Assembly (NCBI GenBank): GCA_001643675.2
Contig: LSRY02000003.1
Coordinates: forward strand, 1,612,001-1,676,000
Direction of reading: 5' to 3'
DNA length: 64,000 bases
Source: Monocercomonoides exilis PA203
Taxonomy: Eukaryota > Protista > Preaxostyla
Part shown: one piece after another, positions 3,509 to 41,187 of the stretch
Layout of the letters: every line of letters starts with the position of its first letter
Position numbering within the stretch: position 1 is the first letter of the stretch
Program-made: the position numbers and the translations under genes
Notes under the pieces: model-generated
Databases searched by the model: none
Told to the model about the DNA's origin: nothing
Seen by the model: the letters and a program-made list of their open reading frames with translations, nothing else

Positions 3509-3509
3509 T

Positions 3510-6420: not shown

Positions 6421-6590
6421 TTTCTTCTTCTTCTTCTTCTTCTTCTTCTTCTTCTTCTTCTTCTTCTTCTTCTTCTTCTTCTTCTTCTTCTTCTTCTTCT
6501 TCTTCTTCTTCTTCTTCTTCTTCTTTTTCTTCTCCTTCTTCTCCTTCTCCTTCTCCTTCTTCTTCTTCTTCTTCTTCTTCTTTTTCTTCA
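6421..6590. repeat. (TTC)n microsatellite with a (TTCTCC)n variant tail
   Basis: Direct reading. No equivalent long tract is present at the mirror position (~35400-35500). Confidence 0.95.
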
Positions 6591-8075: not shown

Positions 8076-8499
8076 TTTGTTTTTCAGAAGAACACACAAA
8101 AATAAAAGAGAGAGAAAATAGAAATTTCATCGAAACACTCTGTTTTCATTTGTTATCATTCTCATAAGCAAATTTCAACCTTTAATCAATTTATTCTATT
8201 AGTTCATCATCGTCTTCTTCTTCTTTTTCTTCTTCTTTTTCTTCTTCTTCTTTCCCTAACTGTTTCATTCCTTCAGCCCATCGTCATCGTCTTCCCATGG
8301 ATTCAAAAATAAACCAATGAGAACATTCTCATTCGGAAAAATACAATCCAAAAGCTTCTGTTTCTCCAGAAGACACATTCAACACACAACACTCCTTCTC
8401 CTTTGCATTCTTCTTATCCTCTTTCTTCTTCATCTTCTTCGACTCTTTTATATTCTTCCTCTTCTTCTTCGTCTTCGTTGTCTTCTTCTTCGTCAACAT

Positions 8500-10439: not shown

Positions 10440-11396
10440 GAAATAAAAGAAGAAAGAGATGATAAGGGCTTGGGGAAAGACATACACAACAAAGCATTCC
10501 AATACCCTCAAAAGCCAAAGGAACATACAAAAGCAGTTAAAGAATATGACTGGGGATGAATTATGTGACGCATTTGGTTAGACTGAAAAGTTGCCTGGGT
10601 CATTTTGTGAGGAAGAAATTCTGCCTCTTCTACCGCCTTTGGGAGAACAGAGGGAAGAAGGAGGGGAAGGGAAGAGAGGAGCAGCAAAGTATCGTTTTCT
10701 TGGTTGGAACAATGACATTCGGAATTGCATGAAAAGAGGGAATATGATGAATGAGCATCATCCTTCACCATCATCCGCTTCAAATTCATTGAATGTTAGG
10801 AGTCACCCTCATTTTGAGCTTCCAAGCAGCAATGCTTCTGTCACGATGCAACAGGAAGAATGCAAACAGATTCCTCTATCATCGTCGTCTTCTTCTTCTT
10901 CTTCATATTCCTCTTCACATATCATATGTCAATCTGAATTCGAGTGATTGTGATTGTGATTGCAATTGTTTCTATCTGGTTACACACACAGTTTGAGAGT
11001 GTCTACCACACGCAGATGCTGTCGAAGATCCCCCTTTTGGAGCACTTGTGAAGGCTCTGATTGCTCTTGTGTGCAGATGCCTTCTCCGCCTCCGCACTCT
11101 TCAGATGCACTGCCTCTTCCTCCTCTTCCTCTTCCTCCTCTTCGTCTTCTTCGCTTTTATTTTCCTCAGCATTTTCATCACCATCATGAATATCGTCACT
11201 TTCTCCTCCATCAACATCATCTTCTTCCTTCTCATCGTCATCTTCAATCACAGTCTGTTTCATGTCTCCATTCGAATGATTATCTTCGTTTGACTCAGCC
11301 ACACGCAAATGTTTGCTGTTTGATGAGCAATGATAGTTTTTTGGGAGAGTTGAGAAATGAAAAAGAAAATGGATCAAATGGAGATGAGAAAGAAAT
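10440..11396. repeat. Intermediate stratum of the inverted duplication (mirror of ~30973-31930), moderately diverged
   Basis: ORFs 10960+/30959- and 11003-/30994+ are clear homologues with scattered substitutions. Confidence 0.85.
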
Positions 11397-13479
11397 GAGC
11401 AGAGAAATAGCAGAAGAACAATAGAAATATGAAGAAGGAAAAGAAGAAGAAGAAGAATATTCAGAGAGAAGAAGAATATTCAGAGAAGAGGAAGGAGAAG
11501 GAGAAAATTGGATTGATGATTGATGATTGGACTGTGAAGGAGGAAAGGGAAAAACAGAAACGGAAAGGGTGATTGCATTTCTCCGATGGGTTCTATTTCT
11601 CCGAAATCTTCATCTTCTTCCTTCTTCCTTCTTCCTCGTCTGATTTATCACCAATTTCAACATCAAAAGAAGCAAGATTATCTTCAATGCCTTCTTTTCT
11701 TCTTTCTTTCTTTCTTCTTCTTCTTCTTCTGTTTCATGTTCTTCTTCACTGCTTTCTGCATCCTCATCCAATTCATCCTTTCAAACAATCCAGTCTTCCT
11801 CTGCCTTTGGGCTATATTACACCTATTTCTCCCCTCCTTCTTCTAATTCGTGTTCTTCACCTTCTTCTTCACCTTCTTCACCTTCTTCTTCTTCTTCTCC
11901 TTCTCCTTCTCCTTCTCCTTCTTTTTCTTTTTCTTCATCTTCGTCTTTGTCTTTGTCTAAATCACTCATTCATCACCATCAACCTCAAAGCAAACAAAAC
12001 AGTCTTCTTCTGCATGGTATACTTCCCCTTCCTCCAATTTTTTCTTTATCTTCTTTTTCTTCTGCTGCTTCTTCATCTTCTTCTTGTTCTTCCTCTTTGC
12101 AATTATCTTCATTTGATGTCTTTTGCATTTTTTCAGATCCAACAGACAAACATCATAATTTTTTGTTTTTGGAGAGAAAGGCAATGAAACCACACAAAGT
12201 TTGCAAATGAACTGAGAATATCAATCTAATTGACAAATTAATGCTAATTGGCCAATATTATATGTGATTGGGGTTTTTTATCACTTCCTAAGTCAACTTA
12301 TCAAATGTGACATTTAACCAACTGACAGCATCAAACAAGTCGTTTTCATCATCTTCTTCAGAAATGTTATTTGACTGATTATTCGTCTTTCAATAATTTC
12401 TTCTTCTTCTTTTTCTTCAAATTCTTCAACTTCTTCTACATTTTATTCTTTCCCACCAGTTGTTCCATCTTCACCATTTTCTTCTTCTTCAGCTCCTTCT
12501 CCAACTTTTTCAATGCCATTTTCACTAACTTTGCATTGGATCGGAACATCGACCATCTGATACATTTAAGCTGTTCAATTGGAAGCACAAGAAAATTTCA
12601 CCGGAAATTGCTTCATTTCCTTTCCTTCTCAATGGTCGATTTTTAATTGCGACCTCATTTAATTTTTCAATCACGATTCTCGTGATGAAAAGCCATTTAT
12701 TCAAATTCGTTTTGTTTCGTTTCGTTTCTTCTTCTTCAACGTCTTTTTCAACGAGCAATAAAAATTGTGATGTTATTTTTGTTTCAATAAACAACCCTCG
12801 AATTCAACGCCTGGCCTCATCATCGATGTCAATTTGGTAACGCAAAAAGAAATATCTATTTTATCACAGAATATCAGCTGAAGTTATATGATAATAGAAG
12901 AGATACTTTATTTTACACGAAAAGCTGATAAGACGAAGCGAAATAAAAAAAGGAGGATGCTTTTCCCCTTTTTTCAGTGAATGAAGGAGACACAGATGAA
13001 AAAGAAAAAGAATTGGAGAAATCCTTTTATGAAATGGATAGGTTCCAAAATGGCCTTCGGCAGATTTCACAACGTCATGCTCCTTCAATATATCGCAGAA
13101 GATGAAACAAAGAGAGAAAGCGGTTGTTTTAGGAAGATCAATAATCGAAGGATAATTCTATGAAGAAGGGGTATCTTCAGCTGAAAAAAAGATGAAGTGA
13201 AAATGGCAAAAGAAATTGAAAGTTTTGAAGAGATTACTGATATTATCGAAAGATATCTTTTTGAAGAGAAGAATAATAGAAAACATTTATTTAAGCAACG
13301 AGTTTTATTTCTTTTGATGGAGAAGAAAAATTAGAAGAGGAAATTTCAAAGAAATATGTTTTACGCGATCCGATGTGAGACTTCTCAAAAGAAAAGTGAT
13401 GATACGTTCTCTTGTTGAAAAGAAGATGAAAATTCATGAATGCAAAGTGAAATGAAAAGCCATCAGAATTAGAAGAAAT

Positions 13480-14679
13480 TTATATGAGAATTAGAAAAAT
13501 AATATCGCATACAGTGAATTTTGTATCGACCGCGCAGAATGTGAGAGTGTTTGTGGGAGCGAAAGTGGAGATGAGAAGAGAGAGGGAGGCATCGCTGAAG
13601 GGAGCAATGCATCCGAGAGCATACTCCACTGTGGCGCATGGGCTTTGCTGTGCTTTGCCACAGGCATCAACATCACTTCCATTGCTGGCAACGATTTTGT
13701 TCTGGTTGATGATTGGAAGCCAGTCATTGTACACACCGCTATCTGCAGTTCCTGCATTCCACACTCTTTTCGATAGGGTTGTTGATCCACAATTCTCGAA
13801 TGGGGATTGGGTAATATCACTTCCGTAAAAGAACACATCATTCCCTCTTCCATTAGTTGCAGTGTTTCCATCGAAGAAGCAGAATGTGATGAATTTTACT
13901 CCATTCATCCATGAAAAAGGAGGATAAAAACACATTGCAGCACCTCCATATGTCGAAGAAGCAGTTAATTTGTTATTAATGAACTGGCACTCATTGATTG
14001 AAAACTGACTTGGCTTGCTGCTGGGTGGGGGTTGAAATGTTAAAGAACCTGTTGAATCGCCACCAGAATTTGAAATGCACTTGCATTTGGAAAACAGGAA
14101 TTGACAAGCTGAGGCCATATCATACACATGAAAATACCAGCCAGTTCCACACCAGTATGTTATTGAACAATTTTCAACTCTGTTTTCTGAGAATGTCCAA
14201 ACAGAATTGGATTGAGGATACCCCACATAAACAGCCCCTCCGTGTCTCGCCTGGCAGTTCAAAAAGTTGGATTTTGAAAAATTGACTTTTAACAAATATA
14301 TGCAGTATAATGCGCCTCCTTCACCATTTCCTGTGCAGTAGCAATTGTTAAATGAGCAAGAAGTGATTGTGAGATTTGCATTTGTACAAGAAACACAAAG
14401 TGCACCTCCTGCAGAAGATCCACCAGTTGAATCATTCCATTCGCACCATTCAAAGATATAGCTATTCAAATCAGTAAATGGCAATCTACTTAATTCCTTT
14501 TTTTGAGTTTCGGATCCGTTATATTTTACAACATCATTTGATGAAGAGCGTGTTTGGTGGAGAAAAGAGGTGTTGAAGGCAGAGAGAAAAGTGAATGGAC
14601 TGTTGAGGTTGGGGAGAATGGTTCCATCGATGGGGTTGTGGGTGTGGATGAAAATGGTTGAGATGAATGCGAAAAACAT
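13480..14679 (-). CDS. Copy C of the GGA-repeat family (399 aa, short hydrophobic N-terminus, 3'-truncated relative to copy E)
   Basis: Intact ORF from ATG 14679 (MFFAFISTIFIHTHNPIDG) with all family motifs. It diverges from E after AVDT. Expression is unknown. Confidence 0.7.
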   Translation of the reverse strand: MFFAFISTIFIHTHNPIDGTILPNLNSPFTFLSAFNTSFLHQTRSSSNDVVKYNGSETQKKELSRLPFTDLNSYIFEWCEWNDSTGGSSAGGALCVSCTNANLTITSCSFNNCYCTGNGEGGALYCIYLLKVNFSKSNFLNCQARHGGAVYVGYPQSNSVWTFSENRVENCSITYWCGTGWYFHVYDMASACQFLFSKCKCISNSGGDSTGSLTFQPPPSSKPSQFSINECQFINNKLTASSTYGGAAMCFYPPFSWMNGVKFITFCFFDGNTATNGRGNDVFFYGSDITQSPFENCGSTTLSKRVWNAGTADSGVYNDWLPIINQNKIVASNGSDVDACGKAQQSPCATVEYALGCIAPFSDASLSLLISTFAPTNTLTFCAVDTKFTVCDIIFLILI

Positions 14680-14948
14680 TTGGAGTGTTTTGTTTGCAAG
14701 AAGAAGAACGCAAAAATGAAAGAGGAGGAATGAAAAATAGTGTTTTCTCTGAAGCTCTCTGGTTTATTTGTTATCATTTGCCTTCATCATTTCCAGCGTG
14801 AACATTTTCATCGATTCATTGCATGTTCTTCAAACTTATCAAAAACATATCATCCAACTTCTTCATCATCCACTTCATCAGATAAATTTCTTCATGATCT
14901 GTTTCATCATCAGAGATCACGAAAGAAATGATGAAGAAACTAAGAAAT

Positions 14949-16316
14949 TTATTTATAAATGAAATATTCAGAAATAAGAATTAGATGAAAAAGTATGAAA
15001 GAAGAGCCGAAGTTGAGAGTAATTGAAGGGACTGCATTGAGAGGGGATTCGGAAAGGAAATGGAATTGAGAAGATGGAAGAGATTTTTTGGAAGAAAGAG
15101 GAGAATCTGGATGGAAGTTGAATTTGCGAAGAGAAGGAAACAGCAATAAACGCAAAGAAAAGCATTTGGATAAACAGAGGATAAATTTGTATAAAGAAAC
15201 AACAACAAGCAAGTCAGGGTGATGCAATTCAGAAGAAATTAAAAATATGATTAACGAGAGAAAAGAAGGAATATGAGAAGCGGGGGAAAAAAATAATTGG
15301 AAAAGAGAAGATAGTGAGAAAAGCTTTTTGTTAGAAGAATTAGTTAAGAAAAGATGAGAAAGCCAGCCATTGTACTCGGTATTATCAGCTGTTCCTTGAT
15401 TCCACACTCTTTTTGATGGGGTCGTTGAGCCACATTGCTGGAATGGAGATTGGGTGATGGCATTACCACTGAAGAACGCGTCATTCCCTCTGCCATTTGT
15501 GGCGGAGTTGCCATCGAAGAAACAGAATGTGATGAATTTCATTCCATTCATCCAAGAATAAGTTGAATGAAAATAAATTGCGGCACCTCCATAAGATTTA
15601 GAAGCAGTCAGATTGTTATTGATGAAATGACACTCAACGATTGAAAATAGAATTGGCTTTGCAGAAGGAGGATTTTGAAATGTTAAAGAACCTGTGGAAT
15701 CACCACCCGAATTTGAGATGCACTTGCATTTTAAAAACTGAAATTGAACAGTTGTTGGATTATAATCGAGTCCAAAAAACCAACCAGTTCCGCACCAGTT
15801 TGTGATTGAACAACTTTCCACTCTGTTTTCTGAGAATGAATAAACAGAATTTGATTGTGGCCAGCCAACGTAAGCAGCTCCTCCATGAGCCGCAGTACAA
15901 CTTGTGAAATTGGATTTTGCGAAATTGACATTTTGCAAATATCTGCAAAATAATGCTCCACCATGATCACCAGTTGAACAATTGTTGAATGAACAAGAAG
16001 TGATTGTGAGATTTGCATTTGTGCATTCAACATAAAGTGCACCCCCATGGCCAGTTCCACCATTTGAATTCTCCCATATGCACCACTCGAAGCGATGACT
16101 GTTTTGATCGAATGAAGTCAGTCTTCCAAGTTTCACTCTTTGAGTTTCAGTTCCAACATGTACAACAGCAGCATTTGGTGAAGAGCGTGTTTGGTGGAGG
16201 AAAGAGGCATTGAAGGCAGAGAGAGAAGTGGCAGGGCTGTTGAGGTTGGGGAGGATGGCACCATCGATGGGGTTGTGGGCATGGATGAAGATGGATGAGT
16301 GGAATGCGAAAAACAT
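14949..16316 (-). CDS. Copy D of the GGA-repeat family; homology ends near 15360 and the frame then reads into flanking sequence
   Basis: In-frame ATG at 16316 (MFFAFHSSIFIHAHNPIDG) and family motifs up to YNGWL. Confidence 0.65.
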   Translation of the reverse strand: MFFAFHSSIFIHAHNPIDGAILPNLNSPATSLSAFNASFLHQTRSSPNAAVVHVGTETQRVKLGRLTSFDQNSHRFEWCIWENSNGGTGHGGALYVECTNANLTITSCSFNNCSTGDHGGALFCRYLQNVNFAKSNFTSCTAAHGGAAYVGWPQSNSVYSFSENRVESCSITNWCGTGWFFGLDYNPTTVQFQFLKCKCISNSGGDSTGSLTFQNPPSAKPILFSIVECHFINNNLTASKSYGGAAIYFHSTYSWMNGMKFITFCFFDGNSATNGRGNDAFFSGNAITQSPFQQCGSTTPSKRVWNQGTADNTEYNGWLSHLFLTNSSNKKLFSLSSLFQLFFSPASHIPSFLSLIIFLISSELHHPDLLVVVSLYKFILCLSKCFSLRLLLFPSLRKFNFHPDSPLSSKKSLPSSQFHFLSESPLNAVPSITLNFGSSFILFHLILISEYFIYK

Positions 16317-16719
16317 TTGGAGGATATTGTTTGCCGGAAGAACACGCAAAAATAAAAGAAGAAAACCATAAAAAATGATTTCAGCGAGACTCTCGGATTT
16401 TTTTGTGTGTGTGTGTTAACATTTGCCTTCACAATTCTCAGCAGCTAATCATTTCTTACAATTCATTCATTATCACCTTCTTCTTCATCTTCTTCACCTT
16501 CTTCTTTGTTTCTTGATCTCATTTCGAATTGAAACAGAGCATCGACCTTCAAATGCCTTTATGTCATTCAATTTGGCAGAGCCGCCATGTGATCCAAAAA
16601 TTATTACATTCATATTTCTTCCTCTCAACGACCGTTCACCAAATGCGCCTTCATTTCATTTTTCATTCATTATTCTGATGAGAAAAAAGCCATCTGGACG
16701 ATTCATTTCATTCAAATTG

Positions 16720-16750
<31 letters not shown>

Positions 16751-17307
16751 CGATTAGAAACAAAAAATGTTTTTGCATTCGTTTCATTCAACTTTCATCA
16801 AATTCAGGGATAAGCCTCGTCTTTTATTTTCTTTTCGGAAGCACAAAAGGATTATTCATTCTATTACAAAATGTAGCCAAATTTAAATAGCAATAGAGGT
16901 GATTTCGAGTCGAAAAAAGCTGATCAGTCGGAGCGAAATCAAAAAAGGAGGACGATTTTGCCTTTTTTATTTGGAAGCTGAAAGAGGCGCAGATAAAAAA
17001 GAAAGAGTATTAGAGCAATTCTTTTATGAAATGAATGAGCTCAAAAATAGCGTTCGGCAGGTTACACAACGTCACACGCCTTCAATATGTCGGAGAAGAT
17101 GAAACGATGAAGGAAACATATTTATTTGAAAAGGCAAATTTAATGGATAATTCTATGAAAGAAGAGAATAAATGCTCGACAAGCAATGTTGATTTCATCA
17201 AATGCACATATGAGATGTTTTCTTCTATTTTGTGTGCCTTCTCTTCAAATATCTTCGACTTTGCCTTCATTTGTACATAAATTCACAATTTGTCTGCTCA
17301 TTCAATA

Positions 17308-19550
17308 TTATTTACCAACTTTCTTCACCTTCTTCAGAAAGCCCATTGCATTGCGTGTGCTCTTGCAGGGCATCTTTGATAGCCAACAACGCATTGCTTT
17401 GATGCCAAGTATGTTTTCCATATGTTCGTCATAAGCTGAATGCCCGTTGAGAAATATAAACAAATCGATATTCCAATCGCCAAATGCTTCTGTTCTGTCA
17501 TGTCCAACAGCCGAATTGTCTTTCTGAGTGATGCTTGTCATGAAAGTGAACAAGGGTTCCTTTACAGAAGCGACAAGGGATTCGCACACAAAATACATAT
17601 CTCTTCCGACGCTGGCCTTGTTGGCAGAAAACACGATATTGGTGATGGAAAAGGTTGTGGATGACACTTCTGAATCATCCTTGTACTCGATCATGAGAGC
17701 ACCGCCTTTTCCTCCAGAACTTGTATCCTCGCTCACAGAGCAGCTGGAGAAGGTGGAGTTCCTCGCAGAAAATGTGTTGGCAGTGGAAGATGAGGCGAAT
17801 GAGATGCACCCGCCATTGGTGGCAGTTTGTTGGCTCAACTGTTCTGAGTTGATACTGGTGATGGTGCAGTTGGCGAGGGAGAGGGAGAGGGCAGGGGAGG
17901 TGGCAGAGGAGAGGACACAGCTGGTGGGGGTGGCTGTGGAGGTGATGTGGGTGATGTTGGAGGAGTTGAGGGTGAGGGGATTTGTGAGTGAGGTGAGGTG
18001 GAAGATGCTCTGGCTGTTGAGGGTGAGACTGGTGATTGCTGTGTGGTTGAGGGCGATGGAGCCAGCAGTGAGGAAGAAGAGGGGTGTTTTTATTGTTATG
18101 GAGGTTGTTCCGGTGATGGTGGTTGTGTTGAGGTTGAGGGAAGGGGAGTTACCGGAGAGGTGGAAGAGGATGGGGGTGATTTGGTTTGAGGAGTTGTGGG
18201 CGATGGCAAGGGCAGAGACTGTGAGGGAGCCCTGTGTCTGTTGGAAGAGGGCAGACGAGGCAGATGGATCTGGTGAAGAAGATGTTGATGATGATGAAAA
18301 TGATGAAAATGATGAAAGAGATGATGTTGATTGTGATGAGTGTGAATGTGAGTTTTGTGGTTGGGGAATGCCACTGGAGGCGATGATGGTGGCAGTTGTG
18401 CCATTTCCAGTGATTATGGTATCAACCGCGCTGAAGGTGAGTGTTTGAGTTGGAACAAATGTTGAACTGAGGAGGGTGAGGGAGGCGTCGTGGAGGAGGG
18501 AAACGAAGCCAGTGAGGGCATACTCGATGGTGGCACATGGGGTCTGTTGGGGTCTACCACAGACGTCGACATCAGTTCCATTGCTGGCAACGATTTTGTT
18601 CTGAGCAATGAGGGGGAGCCAGCCATTGAACACGGTATTATCAGCTGTTCCTTGATTCCAGACTCTTTTTGTTGAAGTTGTTGATCCACAATTCTCAAAC
18701 GGAGATTGGGTGATATCACTTCCGTAAAAGAACACATCATTTCCTCTGCCATTTGTGGCAGTGTTTCCATCGAAGAAGCAGAATGTGATGAATTTAAACC
18801 CGCTCATCCAGGAATAAGTTGCTGTGCAACACAGCGCAGCGCCACCATAGGAAGTTGATGAACTTGTCAATTTGTTGTTTATGAATTGGCAATCATTAAC
18901 CAAAAATTGATTTGGTTTGGTTCCTGGAGGAGCATTGAATGTTAAAGAACCAGCAGCATCACCACCAGAATTTGAGATGCACTTGCATTTGGAAAACAGG
19001 AATTGAGCACTTGTTGGTGTACTTCCCATGTTAAAATACCAACCAGTTCCACACCAATTTGTTATTGAACAACTTTCCGCTCTGTTTTCTGAGAATGCCC
19101 AAGCAGAATTTGGTTGAGGGCTCCATATTGATACTGCTCCTCCATGAGCAGCTGAACAATTTGTAATATTGGATTTTGTGATATCAATTTTTAACAAACT
19201 GTTACAAAATAATGCTCCGCCTTCTCCACTTCCTGTGGTTGTACATTTGTGAAATGAGCAAGAAGTGATTGTGAGATTTGCATTTGTGCAAACAACTTTA
19301 AGTGCACCTCCATGATCACCACCACCATTTGAATCTTTCCATTCGCACCATTCAAAGCGATGACTGTTTTGATCGAATGAAGTCAACCTCCCAGGTGATT
19401 TTCTTTGAGATTCTGTTCCAATATGCTTTACAGGATCATTTGATGAAGAACGTGTTTGGTGGAGAAAAGAGGTGTTGAAGGCAGAGAGAGAAGTGAATGG
19501 ACTGTTGAGATTTGGGAGAATGGTTCCATCGATGGGGTTGTGAGTTGTGT
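17308..19550 (-). pseudogene. Copy E of the GGA-repeat family; the copy extending furthest 3', with no in-frame ATG start
   Basis: The 692-aa ORF extends upstream to HNPIDG (~19540), preceded by an in-frame TAA. It adds a Ser/Thr-rich region and further repeats (GGCISF, GGKGGALMI, FSANKASVGRDMYFVC). No transmembrane anchor is seen. Confidence 0.75.
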
Positions 19551-20650
19551 GAATGAGAAAATCAATATGAAAAGAGCAAAGTTATTCTGAAACAACGATT
19601 GTGAAAATGAAGATAGGAGTTCAATCCTGATTGGAAAAAACAATTTTTGTTTTGAATTAATTTTTTCGTTTTTCGAGTTTTCTTTTTCGAGAGCCGTTTC
19701 TGAATGAATGAGCAATGCAATAGGAGAAAAAGAAAAGGATGCTTATATGATGTTATGCTTTGCTTAAAGTTCTTTTGCATTTGTTTGTGTTTGGAACGAC
19801 GAAATTATTCATAGCCTGGTAAGTGTCGTTTTTTGTTTTCTATCACTCAGAAAGTTATTTCGTCATTTGTGTTTATCACAATGAAAACAATTTAAGATTT
19901 GTGAAATGAGCATTCGATTCTCAAGTTTCTTCTTAATATTCCTTTGTTGACTTTGTTTTTAGTTTGAGAGCATTGTTTGAATGAAAAACCAAAAAGATTT
20001 CGATTGTAGGAAAAAAAATTTTTTTTATTAAAAATAATCCTTGAGCAACATTAACTGGAAAAGAAAATAATACTTTTTGAATCAAGTTTGTTTTTGCAAT
20101 GAAAGGATTTTTTTTTTATAATCAAAGACAGAAAGTTGTTCAATTTAACTGCAATGAATAACTATTTCAAAACTTTGACATGATGTCATACAAACATTTT
20201 AAATAAATTGAAATTGGCAATGCTTTTGTCAATAATATCGAAAAGGAATTGAACGAAAATAACTTTGAACAGTTTGAGATGTTCAGTTGATATCGCTAAT
20301 AATTTCTTCAATTTTTGCTCGATTCTTCTTGTGGCTGCAGATGATTGCGATTAGAGACGAAGTCACTGGTGCAGAAAAACTGTAAACCAAAAATTTGAAA
20401 CAGCAACTTCGAAATGATATTTTTTTTGTGTTTGATAATCTTCATTAAAAAACAAGCTTTCTTTTTGCAAAAATGTTTTTCGTTGTTGTAGTGTATTATT
20501 CAGTCCTATTCATGAAGATAATTCAGGAGAAAAAAATGAAAATTCAAAAAGTTTAACCAAAGTTTGTTTTCATTGAAAAATCAATCATTGAAACAAACAA
20601 TAAAAACAAACAAATTGAATAAATAAATAAAATACAGGAAACCTTCAAAA

Positions 20651-20720
20651 TAAAGAAAAGAAAAAGAAAAAGAAAAGAAAAGAAAGAAAAGAAAAGAAAA
20701 GAAAAGAAAAACAAAGAAAA
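20651..20720. repeat. (GAAAA)n microsatellite, mirrored as (TTTTC)n at ~21635-21715
   Basis: Direct reading. Confidence 0.9.
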
Positions 20721-21164
20721 TGATTATTAACTATTCCTAAAAATATTTTTTAATAATGTAATTATTTTTGATAATATATTTTTCTTTCAAAATTCTCGGT
20801 TCATAAATTTCCTTGAATATTAATAAATGAACACAAAAAAAGTGAAATGGTATGTTTAAGACATCGTCGTTTTTAATTCTGATTAAACATTTGTTTTTGA
20901 AACAGTTGCGATAGTTTTTGCATTTGAATTCAAAATCTCTTCCCAATGGCAAACAATCATTGAAAAATCAATATAGTTAGTGTTAATAATGGTGGACACT
21001 TTCAATAACTGTGGACAGTTGTATTATTTCAACAACTGTTGGTCGTTGCTTTTTGACAATTAACCCATTTATTCCCTCAACGAATATGAACTTATAAGAC
21101 AAACAGAAATGAAACAATTTGCTCTGCAGAATTTTGAAAAAAACATTTTTAATTTACGGAGAAA

Positions 21165-21188
21165 TTTTGAGAATTCAATTTCTTTGGG
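21165..21188. other. 24-nt non-palindromic spacer at the palindrome centre (TTTTGAGAATTCAATTTCTTTGGG)
   Basis: Flanked by ...AATTTACGGAGAAA (ends 21164) and its reverse complement TTTCTCCGTAAATT... (starts 21189). Confidence 0.97.
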
Positions 21189-22809
21189 TTTCTCCGTAAA
21201 TTAAAAATGTTTTTTTCAAAATTCTGCAGAGCAAATTGTTTCATTTCTGTTTGTCTTATAAGTTCATATTCGTTGAGGGAATAAATGGGTTAATTGTCAA
21301 AAAGCAACGACCAACAGTTGTTGAAATAATACAACTGTCCACAGTTATTGAAAGTGTCCACCATTATTAACACTAACTATATTGATTTTTCAATGATTGT
21401 TTGCCATTGGGAAGAGATTTTGAATTCAAATGCAAAAACTATCGCAACTGTTTCAAAAACAAATGTTTAATCAGAATTAAAAACGACGATGTCTTAAACA
21501 TACCATTTCACTTTTTTTGTGTTCATTTATTAATATTCAAGGGAAATTTATGAACCGAGAATTTTGAAAGAAAAAATATATTATCAAAAATAATTACATT
21601 ATTAAAAAATATTTTTAGGAATAGTTAATAATCATTTTCTTTTCTTTGTTTTTCTTTTCTTTTCTTTTCTTTTCTTTTCTTTTCTTTTCTTTTTCTTTTT
21701 CTTTTTCTTTTATTTTTGAAGGTTTCCTGTATTTTATTTATTTATTCAATTTGTTTGTTTTTATTGTTTGTTTCAATGATTGATTTTTCAATGAAAACAA
21801 ACTTTGGTTAAACTTTTTGAATTTTCATTTTTTTCTCCTGAATTATCTTCATGAATAGGACTGAATAATACACTACAACAACGAAAAACATTTTTGCAAA
21901 AAGAAAGCTTGTTTTTTTAATGAAGATTATCAAACACAAAAAAAATATCATTTCGAAGTTGCTGTTTCAAATTTTTTGGTTTACAGTTTTTCTGCACCAG
22001 TGACTTCGTCTCTAATCGCAATCATCTGCAGCCACAAGAAGAATCGAGCAAAAATTGAAGAAATTATTAGCGATATCAACTGAACATCTCAAACTGTTCA
22101 AAGTTATTTTCGTTCAATTCCTTTTCGATATTATTGACAAAAGCATTGCCAATTTCAATTTATTTAAAATGTTTGTATGACATCATGTCAAAGTTTTGAA
22201 ATAGTTATTCATTGCAGTTAAATTGAACAACTTTCTGTCTTTGATTATAAAAAAAAAATCCTTTCATTGCAAAAACAAACTTGATTCAAAAAGTATTATT
22301 TTCTTTTCCAGTTAATGTTGCTCAAGGATTATTTTTAATAAAAAAAATTTTTTTTCCTACAATCGAAATCTTTTTGGTTTTTCATTCAAACAATGCTCTC
22401 AAACTAAAAACAAAGTCAACAAAGGAATATTAAGAAGAAACTTGAGAATCGAATGCTCATTTCACAAATCTTAAATTGTTTTCATTGTGATAAACACAAA
22501 TGACGAAATAACTTTCTGAGTGATAGAAAACAAAAAACGACACTTACCAGGCTATGAATAATTTCGTCGTTCCAAACACAAACAAATGCAAAAGAACTTT
22601 AAGCAAAGCATAACATCATATAAGCATCCTTTTCTTTTTCTCCTATTGCATTGCTCATTCATTCAGAAACGGCTCTCGAAAAAGAAAACTCGAAAAACGA
22701 AAAATTAATTCAAAACAAAAATTGTTTTTCCAATCAGGATTGAACTCCTATCTTCATTTTCACAATCGTTGTTTCAGAATAACTTTGCTCTTTTCATATT
22801 GATTTTCTC

Positions 22810-25055
22810 ATTCACACAACTCACAACCCCATCGATGGAACCATTCTCCCAAATCTCAACAGTCCATTCACTTCTCTCTCTGCCTTCAACACCTCTTTTC
22901 TCCACCAAACACGTTCTTCATCAAATGATCCTGTAAAGCATATTGGAACAGAATCTCAAAGAAAATCACCTGGGAGGTTGACTTCATTCGATCAAAACAG
23001 TCATCGCTTTGAATGGTGCGAATGGAAAGATTCAAATGGTGGTGGTGATCATGGAGGTGCACTTAAAGTTGTTTGCACAAATGCAAATCTCACAATCACT
23101 TCTTGCTCATTTCACAAATGTACAACCACAGGAAGTGGAGAAGGCGGAGCATTATTTTGTAACAGTTTGTTAAAAATTGATATCACAAAATCCAATATTA
23201 CAAATTGTTCAGCTGCTCATGGAGGAGCAGTATCAATATGGAGCCCTCAACCAAATTCTGCTTGGGCATTCTCAGAAAACAGAGCGGAAAGTTGTTCAAT
23301 AACAAATTGGTGTGGAACTGGTTGGTATTTTAACATGGGAAGTACACCAACAAGTGCTCAATTCCTGTTTTCCAAATGCAAGTGCATCTCAAATTCTGGT
23401 GGTGATGCTGCTGGTTCTTTAACATTCAATGCTCCTCCAGGAACCAAACCAAATCAATTTTTGGTTAATGATTGCCAATTCATAAACAACAAATTGACAA
23501 GTTCATCAACTTCCTATGGTGGCGCTGCGCTGTGTTGCACAGCAACTTATTCCTGGATGAGCGGGTTTAAATTCATCACATTCTGCTTCTTCGATGGAAA
23601 CACTGCCACAAATGGCAGAGGAAATGATGTGTTCTTTTACGGAAGTGATATCACCCAATCTCCGTTTGAGAATTGTGGATCAACAACTTCAACAAAAAGA
23701 GTCTGGAATCAAGGAACAGCTGATAATACCGTGTTCAATGGCTGGCTCCCCCTCATTGCTCAGAACAAAATCGTTGCCAGCAATGGAACTGATGTCGACG
23801 TCTGTGGTAGACCCCAACAGACCCCATGTGCCACCATCGAGTATGCCCTCACTGGCTTCGTTTCCTCCTCCACGACGCCTCCCTCACCCTCCTCAGTTCA
23901 ACATTTGTTCCAACTCAAACACTCACCTTCAGCGCGGTTGATACCATAATCACTGGAAATGGCACAACTGCCACCATCATCGCCTCCAGTGGCATTCCCC
24001 AACCACAAAACTCACATTCACACTCATCACAATCAACATCATCTCTTTCATCATTTTCATCATTTTCATCATCATCAACATCTTCTTCACCAGATCCATC
24101 TGCCTCGTCTGCCCTCTTCCAACAGACACAGGGCTCCCTCACAGTCTCTGCCCTTGCCATCGCCCACAACTCCTCAAACCAAATCACCCCCATCCTCTTC
24201 CACCTCTCCGGTAACTCCCCTTCCCTCAACCTCAACACAACCACCATCACCGGAACAACCTCCATAACAATAAAAACACCCCTCTTCTTCCTCACTGCTG
24301 GCTCCATCGCCCTCAACCACACAGCAATCACCAGTCTCACCCTCAACAGCCAGAGCATCTTCCACCTCACCTCACTCACAAATCCCCTCACCCTCAACTC
24401 CTCCAACATCACCCACATCACCTCCACAGCCACCCCCACCAGCTGTGTCCTCTCCTCTGCCACCTCCCCTGCCCTCTCCCTCTCCCTCGCCAACTGCACC
24501 ATCACCAGTATCAACTCAGAACAGTTGAGCCAACAAACTGCCACCAATGGCGGGTGCATCTCATTCGCCTCATCTTCCACTGCCAACACATTTTCTGCGA
24601 GGAACTCCACCTTCTCCAGCTGCTCTGTGAGCGAGGATACAAGTTCTGGAGGAAAAGGCGGTGCTCTCATGATCGAGTACAAGGATGATTCAGAAGTGTC
24701 ATCCACAACCTTTTCCATCACCAATATCGTGTTTTCTGCCAACAAGGCCAGCGTCGGAAGAGATATGTATTTTGTGTGCGAATCCCTTGTCGCTTCTGTA
24801 AAGGAACCCTTGTTCACTTTCATGACAAGCATCACTCAGAAAGACAATTCGGCTGTTGGACATGACAGAACAGAAGCATTTGGCGATTGGAATATCGATT
24901 TGTTTATATTTCTCAACGGGCATTCAGCTTATGACGAACATATGGAAAACATACTTGGCATCAAAGCAATGCGTTGTTGGCTATCAAAGATGCCCTGCAA
25001 GAGCACACGCAATGCAATGGGCTTTCTGAAGAAGGTGAAGAAAGTTGGTAAATAA
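22810..25055 (+). pseudogene. Copy E' (mirror of E), with a 1-nt deletion in a C run near 23864
   Basis: ORFs 22978-23949 and 23826-25055 together reproduce the 692-aa ORF of copy E. Confidence 0.75.
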
Positions 25056-25613
25056 TATTGAATGAGCAGACAAATTGTGAATTTATGTACAAATGAAGGC
25101 AAAGTCGAAGATATTTGAAGAGAAGGCACACAAAATAGAAGAAAACATCTCATATGTGCATTTGATGAAATCAACATTGCTTGTCGAGCATTTATTCTCT
25201 TCTTTCATAGAATTATCCATTAAATTTGCCTTTTCAAATAAATATGTTTCCCTCATCGTTTCATCTTCTCCGACATATTGAAGGCGTGTGACGTTGTGTA
25301 ACCTGCCGAACGCTATTTTTGAGCTCATTCATTTCATAAAAGAATTGCTCTAATACTCTTTCTTTTTTATCTGCGCCTCTTTCAGCTTCCAAATAAAAAA
25401 AGGCAAAATCGTCCTCCTTTTTTGATTTCGCTCCGACTGATCAGCTTTTTTCGACTCGAAATCACCTCTATTGCTATTTAAATTTGGCTACATTTTGTAA
25501 TAGAATGAATAATCCTTTTGTGCTTCCGAAAAGAAAATAAAAGACGAGGCTTATCCCTGAATTTGATGAAAGTTGAATGAAACGAATGCAAAAACATTTT
25601 TTGTTTCTAATCG

Positions 25614-25644
<31 letters not shown>

Positions 25645-26050
25645 CAATTTGAATGAAATGAATCGTCCAGATGGCTTTTTTCTCATCAGAATAATGAATG
25701 AAAAATGAAATGAAGGCGCATTTGGTGAACGGTCGTTGAGAGGAAGAAATATGAATGTAATAATTTTTGGATCACATGGCGGCTCTGCCAAATTGAATGA
25801 CATAAAGGCATTTGAAGGTCGATGCTCTGTTTCAATTCGAAATGAGATCAAGAAACAAAGAAGAAGGTGAAGAAGATGAAGAAGAAGGTGATAATGAATG
25901 AATTGTAAGAAATGATTAGCTGCTGAGAATTGTGAAGGCAAATGTTAACACACACACACAAAAAAAAAATCCGAGAGTCTCGCTGAAATCATTTTTTATG
26001 GTTTTCTTCTTTTATTTTTGCGTGTTCTTCCGGCAAACAATATCCTCCAA

Positions 26051-27116
26051 ATGTTTTTCGCATTCCACTCATCCATCTTCATCCATGCCCACAACCCCAT
26101 CGATGGTGCCATCCTCCCCAACCTCAACAGCCCTGCCACTTCTCTCTCTGCCTTCAATGCCTCTTTCCTCCACCAAACACGCTCTTCACCAAATGCTGCT
26201 GTTGTACATGTTGGAACTGAAACTCAAAGAGTGAAACTTGGAAGACTGACTTCATTCGATCAAAACAGTCATCGCTTCGAGTGGTGCATATGGGAGAATT
26301 CAAATGGTGGAACTGGCCATGGGGGTGCACTTTATGTTGAATGCACAAATGCAAATCTCACAATCACTTCTTGTTCATTCAACAATTGTTCAACTGGTGA
26401 TCATGGTGGAGCATTATTTTGCAGATATTTGCAAAATGTCAATTTCGCAAAATCCAATTTCACAAGTTGTACTGCGGCTCATGGAGGAGCTGCTTACGTT
26501 GGCTGGCCACAATCAAATTCTGTTTATTCATTCTCAGAAAACAGAGTGGAAAGTTGTTCAATCACAAACTGGTGCGGAACTGGTTGGTTTTTTGGACTCG
26601 ATTATAATCCAACAACTGTTCAATTTCAGTTTTTAAAATGCAAGTGCATCTCAAATTCGGGTGGTGATTCCACAGGTTCTTTAACATTTCAAAATCCTCC
26701 TTCTGCAAAAGCCAATTCTATTTTCAATCGTTGAGTGTCATTTCATCAATAACAATCTGACTGCTTCTAAATCTTATGGAGGTGCCGCAATTTATTTTCA
26801 TTCAACTTATTCTTGGATGAATGGAATGAAATTCATCACATTCTGTTTCTTCGATGGCAACTCCGCCACAAATGGCAGAGGGAATGACGCGTTCTTCAGT
26901 GGTAATGCCATCACCCAATCTCCATTCCAGCAATGTGGCTCAACGACCCCATCAAAAAGAGTGTGGAATCAAGGAACAGCTGATAATACCGAGTACAATG
27001 GCTGGCTTTCTCATCTTTTCTTAACTAATTCTTCTAACAAAAAGCTTTTCTCACTATCTTCTCTTTTCCAATTATTTTTTTCCCCGCTTCTCATATTCCT
27101 TCTTTTCTCTCGTTAA
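26051..27116 (+). pseudogene. Copy D' (mirror of D), with a 1-nt insertion in an A run near 26707-26710
   Basis: ORFs 26018-26734 and 26817-27116 match D. The sequence is GCAAAAGCC here versus GCAAAGCC in D. Confidence 0.75.
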
Positions 27117-27686
27117 TCATATTTTTAATTTCTTCTGAATTGCATCACCCTGACTTGCTTGTTGTTGTTTCTTTATACAAATTTATCCTCTGTTTATCCA
27201 AATGCTTTTCTTTGCGTTTATTGCTGTTTCCTTCTCTTCGCAAATTCAACTTCCATCCAGATTCTCCTCTTTCTTCCAAAAATCTCTTCCATCTTCTCAA
27301 TTCCATTTCCTTTCCGAATCCCCTCTCAATGCAGTCCCTTCAATTACTCTCAACTTCGGCTCTTCTTTCATACTTTTTCATCTAATTCTTATTTCTGAAT
27401 ATTTCATTTATAAATAAATTTCTTAGTTTCTTCATCATTTCTTTCGTGATCTCTGATGATGAAACAGATCATGAAGAAATTTATCTGATGAAGTGGATGA
27501 TGAAGAAGTTGGATGATATGTTTTTGATAAGTTTGAAGAACATGCAATGAATCGATGAAAATGTTCACGCTGGAAATGATGAAGGCAAATGATAACAAAT
27601 AAACCAGAGAGCTTCAGAGAAAACACTATTTTTCATTCCTCCTCTTTCATTTTTGCGTTCTTCTTCTTGCAAACAAAACACTCCAA

Positions 27687-28889
27687 ATGTTTTTCGCATT
27701 CATCTCAACCATTTTCATCCACACCCACAACCCCATCGATGGAACCATTCTCCCCAACCTCAACAGTCCATTCACTTTTCTCTCTGCCTTCAACACCTCT
27801 TTTCTCCACCAAACACGCTCTTCATCAAATGATGTTGTAAAATATAACGGATCCGAAACTCAAAAAAAGGAATTAAGTAGATTGCCATTTACTGATTTGA
27901 ATAGCTATATCTTTGAATGGTGCGAATGGAATGATTCAACTGGTGGATCTTCTGCAGGAGGTGCACTTTGTGTTTCTTGTACAAATGCAAATCTCACAAT
28001 CACTTCTTGCTCATTTAACAATTGCTACTGCACAGGAAATGGTGAAGGAGGCGCATTATACTGCATATATTTGTTAAAAGTCAATTTTTCAAAATCCAAC
28101 TTTTTGAACTGCCAGGCGAGACACGGAGGGGCTGTTTATGTGGGGTATCCTCAATCCAATTCTGTTTGGACATTCTCAGAAAACAGAGTTGAAAATTGTT
28201 CAATAACATACTGGTGTGGAACTGGCTGGTATTTTCATGTGTATGATATGGCCTCAGCTTGTCAATTCCTGTTTTCCAAATGCAAGTGCATCGCAAATTC
28301 TGGTGGTGATGCAGCTGGCTCTCTCACATTCAACTGGCCTCCACAAAATAAACCAACTCAGTTTTCAATCAATGAGTGCCAATTCATCAATAATAAATTG
28401 ACAAATTCATCATCTTTATGGGGAGGAGCTGGGCTTTGCTGCACAAATACTTTCACATGGATGAATGAAATTAGATTCATTTCTTTCTGTTTCTTCGATG
28501 GAAATACAGCAACAAATGGAAGAGGAAACGATGTGTTCTTCAGTGGAAGCAGTATCACTCAATCTCCATTCCAGCAATGCGGTTCAACAACCACAACAAA
28601 AAGAGTGTGGAATGCAGGAACTGCAGATAGCGGTGTGTACAATGACTGGCTTCCAATCATCAACCAGAACAAAATCGTTGCCAGCAATGGAAGTGATGTT
28701 GATGCCTGTGGCAAAGCACAGCAAAGCCCATGCGCCACAGTGGAGTATGCTCTCGGATGCATTGCTCCCTTCAGCGATGCCTCCCTCTCTCTTCTCATCT
28801 CCACTTTCGCTCCCACAAACACTCTCACATTCTGCGCGGTCGATACAAAATTCACTGTATGCGATATTATTTTTCTAATTCTCATATAA
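27687..28889 (+). CDS. Copy C' (400 aa): matches C except for an internal ~100-aa segment
   Basis: Intact ORF whose N- and C-terminal parts match C residue for residue. Confidence 0.7.
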   Translation: MFFAFISTIFIHTHNPIDGTILPNLNSPFTFLSAFNTSFLHQTRSSSNDVVKYNGSETQKKELSRLPFTDLNSYIFEWCEWNDSTGGSSAGGALCVSCTNANLTITSCSFNNCYCTGNGEGGALYCIYLLKVNFSKSNFLNCQARHGGAVYVGYPQSNSVWTFSENRVENCSITYWCGTGWYFHVYDMASACQFLFSKCKCIANSGGDAAGSLTFNWPPQNKPTQFSINECQFINNKLTNSSSLWGGAGLCCTNTFTWMNEIRFISFCFFDGNTATNGRGNDVFFSGSSITQSPFQQCGSTTTTKRVWNAGTADSGVYNDWLPIINQNKIVASNGSDVDACGKAQQSPCATVEYALGCIAPFSDASLSLLISTFAPTNTLTFCAVDTKFTVCDIIFLILI

Positions 28890-31789
28890 ATTTCTTCTAA
28901 TTCTGATGGCTTTTCATTTCACTTTGCATTCATGAATTTTCATCTTCTTTTCAACAAGAGAACGTATCATCACTTTTCTTTTGAGAAGTCTCACATCGGA
29001 TCGCGTAAAACATATTTCTTTGAAATTTCCTCTTCTAATTTTTCTTCTCCATCAAAAGAAATAAAACTCGTTGCTTAAATAAATGTTTTCTATTATTCTT
29101 CTCTTCAAAAAGATATCTTTCGATAATATCAGTAATCTCTTCAAAACTTTCAATTTCTTTTGCCATTTTCACTTCATCTTTTTTTCAGCTGAAGATACCC
29201 CTTCTTCATAGAATTATCCTTCGATTATTGATCTTCCTAAAACAACCGCTTTCTCTCTTTGTTTCATCTTCTGCGATATATTGAAGGAGCATGACGTTGT
29301 GAAATCTGCCGAAGGCCATTTTGGAACCTATCCATTTCATAAAAGGATTTCTCCAATTCTTTTTCTTTTTCATCTGTGTCTCCTTCATTCACTGAAAAAA
29401 GGGGAAAAGCATCCTCCTTTTTTTATTTCGCTTCGTCTTATCAGCTTTTCGTGTAAAATAAAGTATCTCTTCTATTATCATATAACTTCAGCTGATATTC
29501 TGTGATAAAATAGATATTTCTTTTTGCGTTACCAAATTGACATCGATGATGAGGCCAGGCGTTGAATTCGAGGGTTGTTTATTGAAACAAAAATAACATC
29601 ACAATTTTTATTGCTCGTTGAAAAAGACGTTGAAGAAGAAGAAACGAAACGAAACAAAACGAATTTGAATAAATGGCTTTTCATCACGAGAATCGTGATT
29701 GAAAAATTAAATGAGGTCGCAATTAAAAATCGACCATTGAGAAGGAAAGGAAATGAAGCAATTTCCGGTGAAATTTTCTTGTGCTTCCAATTGAACAGCT
29801 TAAATGTATCAGATGGTCGATGTTCCGATCCAATGCAAAGTTAGTGAAAATGGCATTGAAAAAGTTGGAGAAGGAGCTGAAGAAGAAGAAAATGGTGAAG
29901 ATGGAACAACTGGTGGGAAAGAATAAAATGTAGAAGAAGTTGAAGAATTTGAAGAAAAAGAAGAAGAAGAAATTATTGAAAGACGAATAATCAGTCAAAT
30001 AACATTTCTGAAGAAGATGATGAAAACGACTTGTTTGATGCTGTCAGTTGGTTAAATGTCACATTTGATAAGTTGACTTAGGAAGTGATAAAAAACCCCA
30101 ATCACATATAATATTGGCCAATTAGCATTAATTTGTCAATTAGATTGATATTCTCAGTTCATTTGCAAACTTTGTGTGGTTTCATTGCCTTTCTCTCCAA
30201 AAACAAAAAATTATGATGTTTGTCTGTTGGATCTGAAAAAATGCAAAAGACATCAAATGAAGATAATTGCAAAGAGGAAGAACAAGAAGAAGATGAAGAA
30301 GCAGCAGAAGAAAAAGAAGATAAAGAAAAAATTGGAGGAAGGGGAAGTATACCATGCAGAAGAAGACTGTTTTGTTTGCTTTGAGGTTGATGGTGATGAA
30401 TGAGTGATTTAGACAAAGACAAAGACGAAGATGAAGAAAAAGAAAAAGAAGGAGAAGGAGAAGGAGAAGGAGAAGAAGAAGAAGAAGGTGAAGAAGGTGA
30501 AGAAGAAGGTGAAGAACACGAATTAGAAGAAGGAGGGGAGAAATAGGTGTAATATAGCCCAAAGGCAGAGGAAGACTGGATTGTTTGAAAGGATGAATTG
30601 GATGAGGATGCAGAAAGCAGTGAAGAAGAACATGAAACAGAAGAAGAAGAAGAAGAAAGAAAGAAAGAAGAAAAGAAGGCATTGAAGATAATCTTGCTTC
30701 TTTTGATGTTGAAATTGGTGATAAATCAGACGAGGAAGAAGGAAGAAGGAAGAAGATGAAGATTTCGGAGAAATAGAACCCATCGGAGAAATGCAATCAC
30801 CCTTTCCGTTTCTGTTTTTCCCTTTCCTCCTTCACAGTCCAATCATCAATCATCAATCCAATTTTCTCCTTCTCCTTCCTCTTCTCTGAATATTCTTCTT
30901 CTCTCTGAATATTCTTCTTCTTCTTCTTTTCCTTCTTCATATTTCTATTGTTCTTCTGCTATTTCTCTGCTCCTTTTTCTTTCTCATCTCCATTTGATCC
31001 ATTTTCTTTTTCATTTCTCAACTCTCCCAAAAAACTATCATTGCTCATCAAACAGCAAACATTTGCGTGTGGCTGAGTCAAACGAAGATAATCATCCGAA
31101 TGGAGACATGAAACAGACTGTGATTGAAGATGACGATGCGAAGGAAGAAGATGATGTTGATGGAGGAGAAAATGACGATATTCATAATGGTGATGAAGAT
31201 GCTGAGGAAAATTAAAGCGAAGAAGATGAAGAGGAGGAAGAGGAAGAGGAAGAGGCAGTGCATTTGAAGAGTGTGGAGGCGGAGAAGGCATCTGCACATA
31301 TGAGCAACCAGAGCCTTCACAAGTGCTCCAAAAGGGGGATCTTCGACAGCATCTGCGTGTGGTAGACACTCTCAAACTGTGTGTGTAATCAGATAGAAAC
31401 AATTGCAATCACAATCACAACTACTCGAATTCGAGATCATATATGATATGTGAAGAAAAATATGAAGAAGAAGAAGAAGATGATGATGATGATAGAGGAA
31501 TTTGTTTGCATTCTTCCTGTTGCATCGAAACAGAAGCACTGTTGCTTGGATGCTCAAAATGAGGCTGACTCCCAACATTCAATGCATTTGAAGCAGATGA
31601 TGGTGAAGGATGATGCTCATTCATCATATTCCCACTTTTCAAACAATTCCGAATAAAATTGTTCCAACCAGAAGAAAATGCTTTGCTGCTCCTCTCTTTC
31701 TTTCCCCTCCTTCTTCTCTCTGTTCTCCCAAAGGTGGCAGAAGAGGCAGAGTTTCTTCACAAAATGACCCAGGCAACTTTTCAGTCTAA

Positions 31790-33225: not shown

Positions 33226-33840
33226 ATGTGAAAAGATAAAACAAGCTTTCTTAAAAAGTTGTGTTGAAATGAGAAGATGAAAAAGTTATGCTAATTATGA
33301 ATGAATAATCGTTCTGGTCTTGCATCAATTAAATTAAATGAGGAATATGAGAAAAGATTAATTCAGAAATGGAAAATGCTGCAGTTGCTTTCATCTGCTC
33401 ATTCCGTTGGATTAAGGCAAAAATTCCACAGAAGCCATGAGGCATCAGACAGATTCCGCAAAATGTTTGATATGCCTTCCTCAAAAACTGAAGTCAATTT
33501 CGCTCTAACTCCAGACGATAAATATCTTCTCTGGCTTTGTGTGAGTTTTCTTGCCTGCCTTCATTTCCCTTTCTCACATAAAACACATTTTCATCTTCAT
33601 AACAAAAACTTCTTGCTCAAACAATAATCTTCGTTTCTTCTTCATTTTTCTCTTTATCTCTCACACTGATGCAGAATGCGAAGAAACACAATTTGATGAA
33701 GTAAATTTTGATGATGAAGCAGAAGAAATTGTATAATATGTTGTTGATATGTTTGATTAAGGAGAAGAAGAAGGGAATTTAATGAGACAATAAATTGCTA
33801 AATTGTGAGGGCAAATGATAATAAATAAAAACAGAACAAT

Positions 33841-41186: not shown

Positions 41187-41187
<1 letters not shown>

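What the first reader, a model, noticed from the sequence alone, without database searches (positions are those of the whole stretch)
11397..30972. ~19.6-kb near-perfect palindrome with only a 24-nt spacer
Seen: two ~9.8-kb arms meet at 21164/21189. Established: long palindromes with tiny spacers are usually unstable and arise by fold-back priming at short inverted repeats, as in the Tetrahymena rDNA palindrome and breakage-fusion-bridge amplicons. They are also a known long-read artefact. The internal replaced segment and the diverged outer strata argue against a simple copy of one molecule. Head-to-head misjoining of two alleles or paralogous loci remains possible.
Basis: partly seen in the sequence, partly recalled or inferred. 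Interest (0 to 1): 0.78.

Follow-up and report, generated by a model that had tools for sequence, protein, structure and literature searches.

The report
Transposon-centred palindrome of surface-protein genes
A 19.6-kb near-perfect mirror repeat in a gut protist's genome is most likely real DNA, likely made when copying folded back at a small mobile-element hairpin inside an older mirrored cluster of predicted surface-protein genes; it is a new example of a known kind of rearrangement.

Summary
The palindrome is there as described: arms 11397-21164 and 21189-30972, 24-nt spacer. The arms differ by 1 substitution, 12 homopolymer indels, a microsatellite length and one replaced 307-bp patch. The genome is Monocercomonoides exilis or very close (monoploid, so allele misjoining is unlikely). 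In run X2 an exact contig runs arm-spacer-arm, distal arm contigs sit at about twice single-locus depth, and depth falls steadily toward the centre, as hairpin loss predicts. The centre is a ~400-bp copy of a dispersed terminal-repeat element. The palindrome is the core of an older ~39-kb inverted duplication (82-94%) with five mirrored beta-helix protein genes per side. The replaced patch is the part of the gene that is also most diverged in both older mirror pairs. Best reading: fold-back copying at the element, rejoining through the old inverted homology. Head-to-head misjoining of two paralogous loci is not excluded (about 20%), because no raw or centre-spanning long reads were available and X2 may be from the source sample. 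The scan noted a similar element-primed palindrome on other DNA (e1-9965645). New member of a known kind.

The parts
11397..21164 (+). Left arm of the recent palindrome
21165..21188 (.). 24-nt non-palindromic spacer with EcoRI site
   Evidence: exact X2 contig 21135-21217, depth 35.2
21189..30972 (-). Right arm of the recent palindrome
   Evidence: exact X2 contigs, lowest at depth 205-211
20974..21379 (.). Central non-coding element (~400 bp, 191-bp arms plus spacer); its outer ~60 bp are the terminus of a dispersed high-copy repeat, MITE-like
   Evidence: many unrelated loose ends before 20970-20974 in 4 of 4 runs and summed depth 1.0-1.4e5 in X2; paralogous site without it at 42006-42241
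13771..14074 (-). Left version of the replaced patch, in gene copy g3
   Evidence: best other match in window 81%
28292..28598 (+). Right version of the replaced patch, in gene copy g3'; in frame, bounded by conserved blocks
   Evidence: best other match in window 80%
10434..11396 (+). Old homology directly outside the left arm (mirror 30973-31938, ~92%); likely re-joining zone
30973..31938 (-). Old homology directly outside the right arm
   Evidence: exact X1 contig 31853-31941 at depth 31.4
1530..8160 (+). Left outer blocks of the older inverted duplication, with gene copies g1 (1527-3236 +) and g2 (7112-8083 -)
33814..40315 (-). Right outer blocks of the older inverted duplication, with g2' (33829-34878 +) and g1' (38342-40651 -, the only copy with a signal-peptide-like start by eye)
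13480..19581 (-). Gene copies g3, g4, g5 (predicted beta-helix, Pmp-like family), 5'-truncated or spliced
22783..28889 (+). Mirror gene copies g5', g4', g3'; frameshift at 26707 is a consensus error, the one at 23863 was not tested
42006..42241 (+). Paralogue of the element's flank (20742-20975, 75%) that continues without the element

Best explanation
This is most likely a real chromosomal palindrome in an oxymonad, likely made when DNA near a small terminal-repeat element folded back on a short inverted repeat, copied 9.8 kb of one arm, and then rejoined the chromosome through an older inverted copy of the same gene cluster. Shown: the geometry, the older ~39-kb mirror, the dispersed element terminus at the centre, an exact arm-spacer-arm contig, about two-copy depth of distal arm contigs, and mosaic gene copies. 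Inferred: a break or fork stall near the hairpin, intramolecular fold-back priming, loss of whatever lay between the old arms, re-annealing in the 92% zone at 11396/30973, and later replacement of the 307-bp patch in g3 or g3' by conversion from a paralogue elsewhere in the genome (or survival of the old arm's patch). No function is claimed for the palindrome; it doubles three copies of a large, recombining family of predicted beta-helix surface proteins.
For: Exact 83-nt X2 contig 21135-21217 (30 left arm, 24 spacer, 29 right arm), depth 35.2. Seven exact X2 arm contigs are listed: the lowest three at 211.2, 204.7, 206.4, the others 273-632; one outside the arm at 78.2; X1 arm pieces 67-131 versus 31.4 and 48.4 outside. 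26 hand-picked single-locus X2 depths: mean 97.7, SD 13.2. Exact X2 contigs fall toward the centre: 143.1, 114, 76.8, 35.2; a toy hairpin-loss model fits best with one palindrome (rms log error 0.063), and depletion of palindromes in sequencing libraries is reported (PMC4057610 passages). The unbranched contig 20919-20996 crosses the element edge, so every locus with this exact flank carries the element. Seven positions where most family contigs differ from the window are complementary across both arms. At 4 of 12 indel sites contigs show one form only (20813/21541, 25960, 26707, 27277), so the true arms are closer than assembled. Other element copies show arm, variant spacer, arm (X2 record 16, X1 record 8). 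Five gene copies are mirrored per side, and mirror pairs are each other's closest copies. The patch region is also the most diverged part of g1/g1' (0.895 to 0.759, p=3e-7) and g2/g2' (0.938 to 0.822, p=2e-7), while 25 non-mirror pairs show no drop (0.757 v 0.756). Monoploid species.
Against: Only contigs were available, no raw reads and no read spanning both arms. X1-X4 are one sample and one study and may be the source of the window. The junction contig has 30 and 29 letters in the arms, under the tool's 31-letter bridging rule for each arm edge. No exact junction contig was listed for X1 (table cut), and X3 and X4 had no depth over 21139-21235. A model of two loci that each carry only a 40-bp inverted repeat fits the four depths nearly as well (0.088), with 4 points and 3 free settings. 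The single-locus baseline was hand-picked; single-contig X2 rows at 49, 165, 173, 198, 223 and 254 were left out. No contig joining either version of the patch to its flanks, or crossing 30972/30973, was listed. No donor for the patch was found (best 81% DNA in window; 79-81% protein over the whole patch among 19 stored relatives). Long palindromes with tiny spacers are expected to be unstable.
Confidence: 0.6

Rival explanations
1. Assembly misjoin: two separate paralogous loci share a near-identical 9.8-kb block ending in the same element copy, and fold-back chimeric long reads joined them head to head.
For: Explains two-copy depth, homopolymer-only differences, the patch and the diverged flanks equally. 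The two-locus, 40-bp-repeat model fits the depth gradient nearly as well. Fold-backs are ~0.55-0.6% of ONT genomic reads (PMC12870357 passages). The family is dispersed over many contigs.
Against: Needs rare chimeras turning at one base to win over normal reads at both loci, and ~85% loss of fragments from a short AT-rich hairpin, while another copy's centre contig has depth 49. The version with a full 191-bp palindromic element at two loci fits badly (0.25).
Confidence: 0.2
2. Real palindrome, but an old inverted duplication whose inner arms were homogenised gradually by arm-to-arm gene conversion, as in mammalian sex-chromosome palindromes, with the spacer shrunk by deletion and the divergent patch left unconverted.
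For: The old mirror shares the same centre and gene order. The patch identity (0.73) is close to that of the same region in the old mirror pairs (0.76, 0.82). Identity steps down 100, 97, 92, 91, 85% just outside the arm.
Against: One substitution in 9.4 kb with a sharp outer edge at 11397/30972 looks like one copying event. The arms are perfect right up to a 24-nt loop inside an element whose other copies have imperfect centres.
Confidence: 0.17
3. Simple read fold-back artefact of one single-copy locus.
For: Core arm differences look like independent consensus errors on one sequence.
Against: Distal arm contigs are at about twice single-locus depth in X2 and X1, the junction is exact in X2, and both sides continue into different but homologous sequence.
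Confidence: 0.03

Closest known systems
Tetrahymena thermophila rDNA palindrome (42-bp M-repeats, 28-bp spacer, ~21 kb; PMC5182062 passages)
   Same: Similar size and spacer; long arms around a short non-palindromic loop; a short inverted repeat is the likely seed.
   Different: Here interstitial, no telomere arrays or rRNA, no sign of programmed breakage; seed is a dispersed element; arms end in an older inverted duplication.
ODIRA / hairpin-primed inverted amplicons of yeast SUL1 (PMC10766183 passages) and TRP/INV of Aspergillus flavus (10.1101/2025.01.14.632981 abstract)
   Same: Inversion junction at a pre-existing short interrupted inverted repeat in AT-rich DNA; re-entry into the chromosome by homology.
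   Different: One junction and about two copies, not an inverted triplication with two junctions.
Mammalian X/Y palindromes with arm-to-arm conversion (PMC8327919 passages)
   Same: Arms over 8 kb at up to 99.99% identity carrying gene-family copies.
   Different: Human X spacers run from 77 bp to 358 kb; this one is 24 nt, in a monoploid protist, with old diverged mirror blocks outside.
Palindromic MITEs / fold-back elements, Tc1-mariner-like by the TA next to the end (family label recalled, from no call)
   Same: Short, non-coding, dispersed terminus with many flanks; paralogous site without the element.
   Different: Target duplication and transposase not shown; full-length family structure not seen.

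Membership tests
Short-inverted-repeat-primed fold-back palindrome | Long near-identical arms around a short non-palindromic spacer | tested here: met
Short-inverted-repeat-primed fold-back palindrome | Junction and two arm copies exist in the DNA | tested here: met
   Exact X2 junction contig and ~2x arm depth; contigs only, same sample possible, two-locus reading not excluded
Short-inverted-repeat-primed fold-back palindrome | Short inverted repeat existed at the centre before the event | tested here: inconclusive
   Other element copies show arm-spacer-arm with 7 differences (X2 record 16, X1 record 8); the ancestral state of this locus was not seen
Tetrahymena-type rDNA palindrome | Programmed break, extrachromosomal, telomere-capped, rRNA cargo | tested here: not met
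   No Rfam hit in the window, no tandem TTAGGG, flanks continue as chromosome
ODIRA inverted triplication | Three copies with two inverted junctions | tested here: not met
   One junction in the window; lowest arm contigs ~2x
Arm-to-arm converted palindromes (mammalian X/Y type) | Arms over 8 kb and over 99% identical | tested here: met
Arm-to-arm converted palindromes (mammalian X/Y type) | Ongoing conversion between arms seen across individuals or species | not testable with these tools
   No second strain or genome available
MITE (non-autonomous DNA transposon) | Dispersed terminus with many different flanks, short and non-coding | tested here: met
   Loose ends at 20970-20974 with ~0.5 agreement in 4 of 4 runs; no frame of 95 aa or more between 19743 and 21200
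MITE (non-autonomous DNA transposon) | Target-site duplication | tested here: inconclusive
   TA precedes the end and the paralogous site stops aligning at TA, but TA on the far side follows from the symmetry
MITE (non-autonomous DNA transposon) | Autonomous partner with transposase and the same ends | not testable with these tools
   No genome held; no transposase family in 60 window frames; terminus not in viral or metagenome contigs
Long-read fold-back artefact | Single-copy depth and junction absent from other data | tested here: not met
Right-handed beta-helix, Chlamydia Pmp-like proteins | Beta-helix fold or Pfam match | tested here: inconclusive
   No Pfam hit; Atlas neighbours at 0.95 carry Chlam_PMP, Beta_helix, DUF1565; model is strand-rich, pLDDT 70, pTM 0.70; Foldseek has no hit at E<=0.001, weak hits mostly beta-helices

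The most novel reading that the evidence does not exclude
The element-centred hairpin is a self-renewing recombination hub: it repeatedly breaks and re-copies one arm onto the other, surviving with a 24-nt loop, while a defined ~300-bp 3' cassette of the surface-protein genes is swapped in from dispersed paralogues. That would be a palindrome-housed, cassette-based diversification system for surface proteins in an oxymonad.
Probability: 0.15. Interest if true: 0.72.

Novelty: new member of a known kind. Interest (0 to 1): 0.42.

Why it matters
If real, it is a natural, apparently fixed 19.6-kb palindrome with a spacer shorter than any of the 26 human X palindromes (77 bp minimum, PMC8327919), sitting in a chromosome of a monoploid protist. 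It records how a small mobile element can seed fold-back copying and how an older inverted duplication can close the event without a dicentric chromosome. It also shows recurrent exchange of one part of a large unannotated surface-protein family. I found no description in print: 'palindrom' and 'inverted' occur 0 times in the main text of PMC8767320, and the 6 papers listed for oxymonad + palindrom do not concern this by title or abstract start; subscription papers and supplements were not seen. If it is a misjoin, it flags a failure mode of long-read assembly at hairpin elements.

Tried and rejected
Whole-genome search: no genome held, so family size, patch donor and other palindromes could not be counted. 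Rfam: 0 hits in 64 kb. Pfam: no passing hit in 8 + 52 frames, only sub-threshold low-complexity matches. Element terminus in metagenome and viral contigs: 0 and 0. X3 and X4 gave no cover of the junction, which proves nothing. Allele misjoin rejected on reported monoploidy. Joined chromosome ends rejected: no telomere arrays. A series of discrete strata was considered and is not supported; outer identity is patchy. Pilon-type patch replacement was considered; it is not excluded, but the same region is replaced in both old mirror pairs. The longest-run permutation test is inflated by conserved blocks, so only the extreme cases (g1/g5, 77 polymorphic columns, 169 bp exact) are relied on. Earlier notes on this genome: none. 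Tanaka et al. 2002 was not held; only its title was seen.

Full report
Observation. The palindrome is present as described. Self-BLAST gives one inverted match over 10437-31938 at 98.2%. The arms meet at 21164/21189 around a 24-nt spacer. In 9,394 core columns, leaving out the replaced patch and a GAAAA tract, there is 1 substitution and 12 indel sites, all in homopolymers. The patch is 13771-14074 versus 28292-28598, about 73% identical. Outside the core the mirror goes on: 10434-11396/30973-31938 at about 92%, then a non-mirrored gap, then 6571-8160/33814-35427 at 81.7% and 1530-6430/35418-40315 at 84.7%. Windowed identity there is patchy, so I read one recent and one old layer.

Organism and cargo. 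All 11 and all 19 protein relatives found are Monocercomonoides exilis proteins, at 68-82% and 51-82% identity, on many different contigs. The window holds ten copies of this family in mirror order, g1(+) g2(-) g3(-) g4(-) g5(-) | g5' g4' g3' g2' g1', and mirror pairs are each other's closest copies. Pfam finds nothing. Atlas neighbours carry Chlam_PMP, Beta_helix and DUF1565 at 0.95, and the model is strand-rich with pLDDT 70; Foldseek gives only weak, mostly beta-helix hits. Predicted beta-helix surface proteins is therefore a lead, not a result. The species is reported monoploid (PMC6759080 passages), and 35% of its assembly is unclassified repeat, with multi-copy parts poorly polished (PMC8767320 passages and section 13).

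Is it physically real? Eight runs hold the left arm; four DNA runs come from one sample and study, four RNA runs from a second study. All are contigs, and the DNA runs may be the window's own source. In X2 an exact 83-nt contig covers 21135-21217: 30 letters of left arm, the spacer, 29 of right arm, depth 35.2. This is the shape a hairpin loop takes in a 31-mer graph, though each arm side is under the tool's 31-letter bridging rule. Of 8 X2 pieces listed on the right arm and flank, 7 lie in the arm (211.2, 204.7, 206.4, 273.1, 313.4, 477.2, 632.1) and 1 outside (78.2); X1 gives 67-131 in the arm and 31.4 and 48.4 outside (8,842 further pieces not shown). I take the higher values as shared with paralogues. 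Twenty-six single-locus-looking X2 depths average 97.7, SD 13.2 (hand-picked, with single-contig rows at 49, 165, 173, 198, 223 and 254 left out). So the arms are about two copies. At 4 of the 12 indel sites contigs show a single form, so those differences are consensus errors, including the frameshift at 26707.

Toward the centre, exact X2 contigs fall: 143.1 (20919-20996), 114 (20992-21079), 76.8 (21050-21132), 35.2 (spacer). A toy model in which fragments are lost by stem length fits one palindrome best (rms log error 0.063), two loci with a 191-bp palindromic element poorly (0.25), and two loci with only a 40-bp inverted repeat nearly as well (0.088). Four points cannot settle this. Under-representation of palindromes in sequencing libraries is stated in PMC4057610 (passages), and ONT genomic fold-back reads run at about 0.55-0.6% (PMC12870357 passages). 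Against: X1 listed no exact junction contig, X3 and X4 do not cover it, and no listed contig ties either patch version or the outer edge to its flanks. I put physical reality near 0.77.

The centre is a dispersed element. Summed X2 depth reaches 1.0-1.4e5 at 20977-21012, and all four runs show many unrelated AT-rich loose ends just before 20970-20974; summed depth is no copy number, but it suggests on the order of a thousand termini. A paralogue of the flank at 42006-42241 aligns up to the TA at 20974-20975 and continues without the element. At seven positions most family contigs differ from the window, and the window letters are complementary across both arms. Two other copies show arm, variant spacer, arm with 7 differences each, so a short imperfect inverted repeat is native to the family. 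Target duplication and transposase are not shown.

The replaced patch. It is in frame and bounded by conserved blocks, at about residues 196-298 of the modelled domain. No donor is in the window (at most 81%) or among stored relatives. The same region is the most diverged part of both old mirror pairs (g1/g1' 0.895 to 0.759; g2/g2' 0.938 to 0.822; p about 3e-7 and 2e-7), while 25 non-mirror pairs show no drop. Copies are mosaic elsewhere too, for example a 169-bp exact run between g1 and g5. This points to segmental conversion among paralogues; survival of the old arm's patch is the alternative.

Mechanism. Most likely, a break or fork stall near the element let a 3' end fold back on the short inverted repeat, synthesis copied 9.8 kb of one arm, and the new strand re-annealed to the older inverted copy at 11396/30973, which restored a linear chromosome and removed the old spacer. 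Every step in this sentence is inferred. It works like the Tetrahymena rDNA palindrome (42-bp repeats, 28-bp spacer; PMC5182062 passages) and like ODIRA junctions (PMC10766183 passages; Aspergillus abstract), but it is a member of neither: no programmed break, no rRNA, no triplication. It resembles mammalian X palindromes in arm size and identity, with a shorter spacer than their 77-bp minimum (PMC8327919 passages). Searches were seen as search listings only.

Verdict. Observation confirmed; interpretation partly supported and extended. New member of a known kind; interest 0.42. Supplements of the genome papers were not examined and may list this repeat.

Noticed in passing
window 45026-62299 (-): Single 5,757-codon open frame, rich in S, E and K runs; no Pfam hit in the 5,000 residues scanned.
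   Followed up: partly
window 40700-45000: AT-rich (24-27% GC) region upstream of g1' with several degenerate inverted and direct repeats, e.g. 42945-43110, 41866-41914/43186-43234, 42530-42567/42907-42944.
   Followed up: no
window 31976-33203: Non-mirrored right gap has summed X2 depth of about 5,000, so it is probably another dispersed repeat; no Pfam hit in its frames.
   Followed up: partly
window 8161-10433: Non-mirrored left gap is 65-74% similar to intergenic stretches inside the arms (12397-13361, 16473-17063, 38076-38349), so the repeat unit is gene plus spacer.
   Followed up: no
g1 (2335-3229) and g5 (18640-19544): 169-bp exact run between non-mirror paralogues, a recent conversion tract.
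   Followed up: partly
protein P0007: One family relative is annotated as fused to a HARBI1-type nuclease (PF13359, PF01609), which hints that the family is spread with or next to transposons.
   Followed up: no
window 6422-6589: 56-copy TTC tract between the two left outer blocks, much shorter at the mirror position.
   Followed up: no
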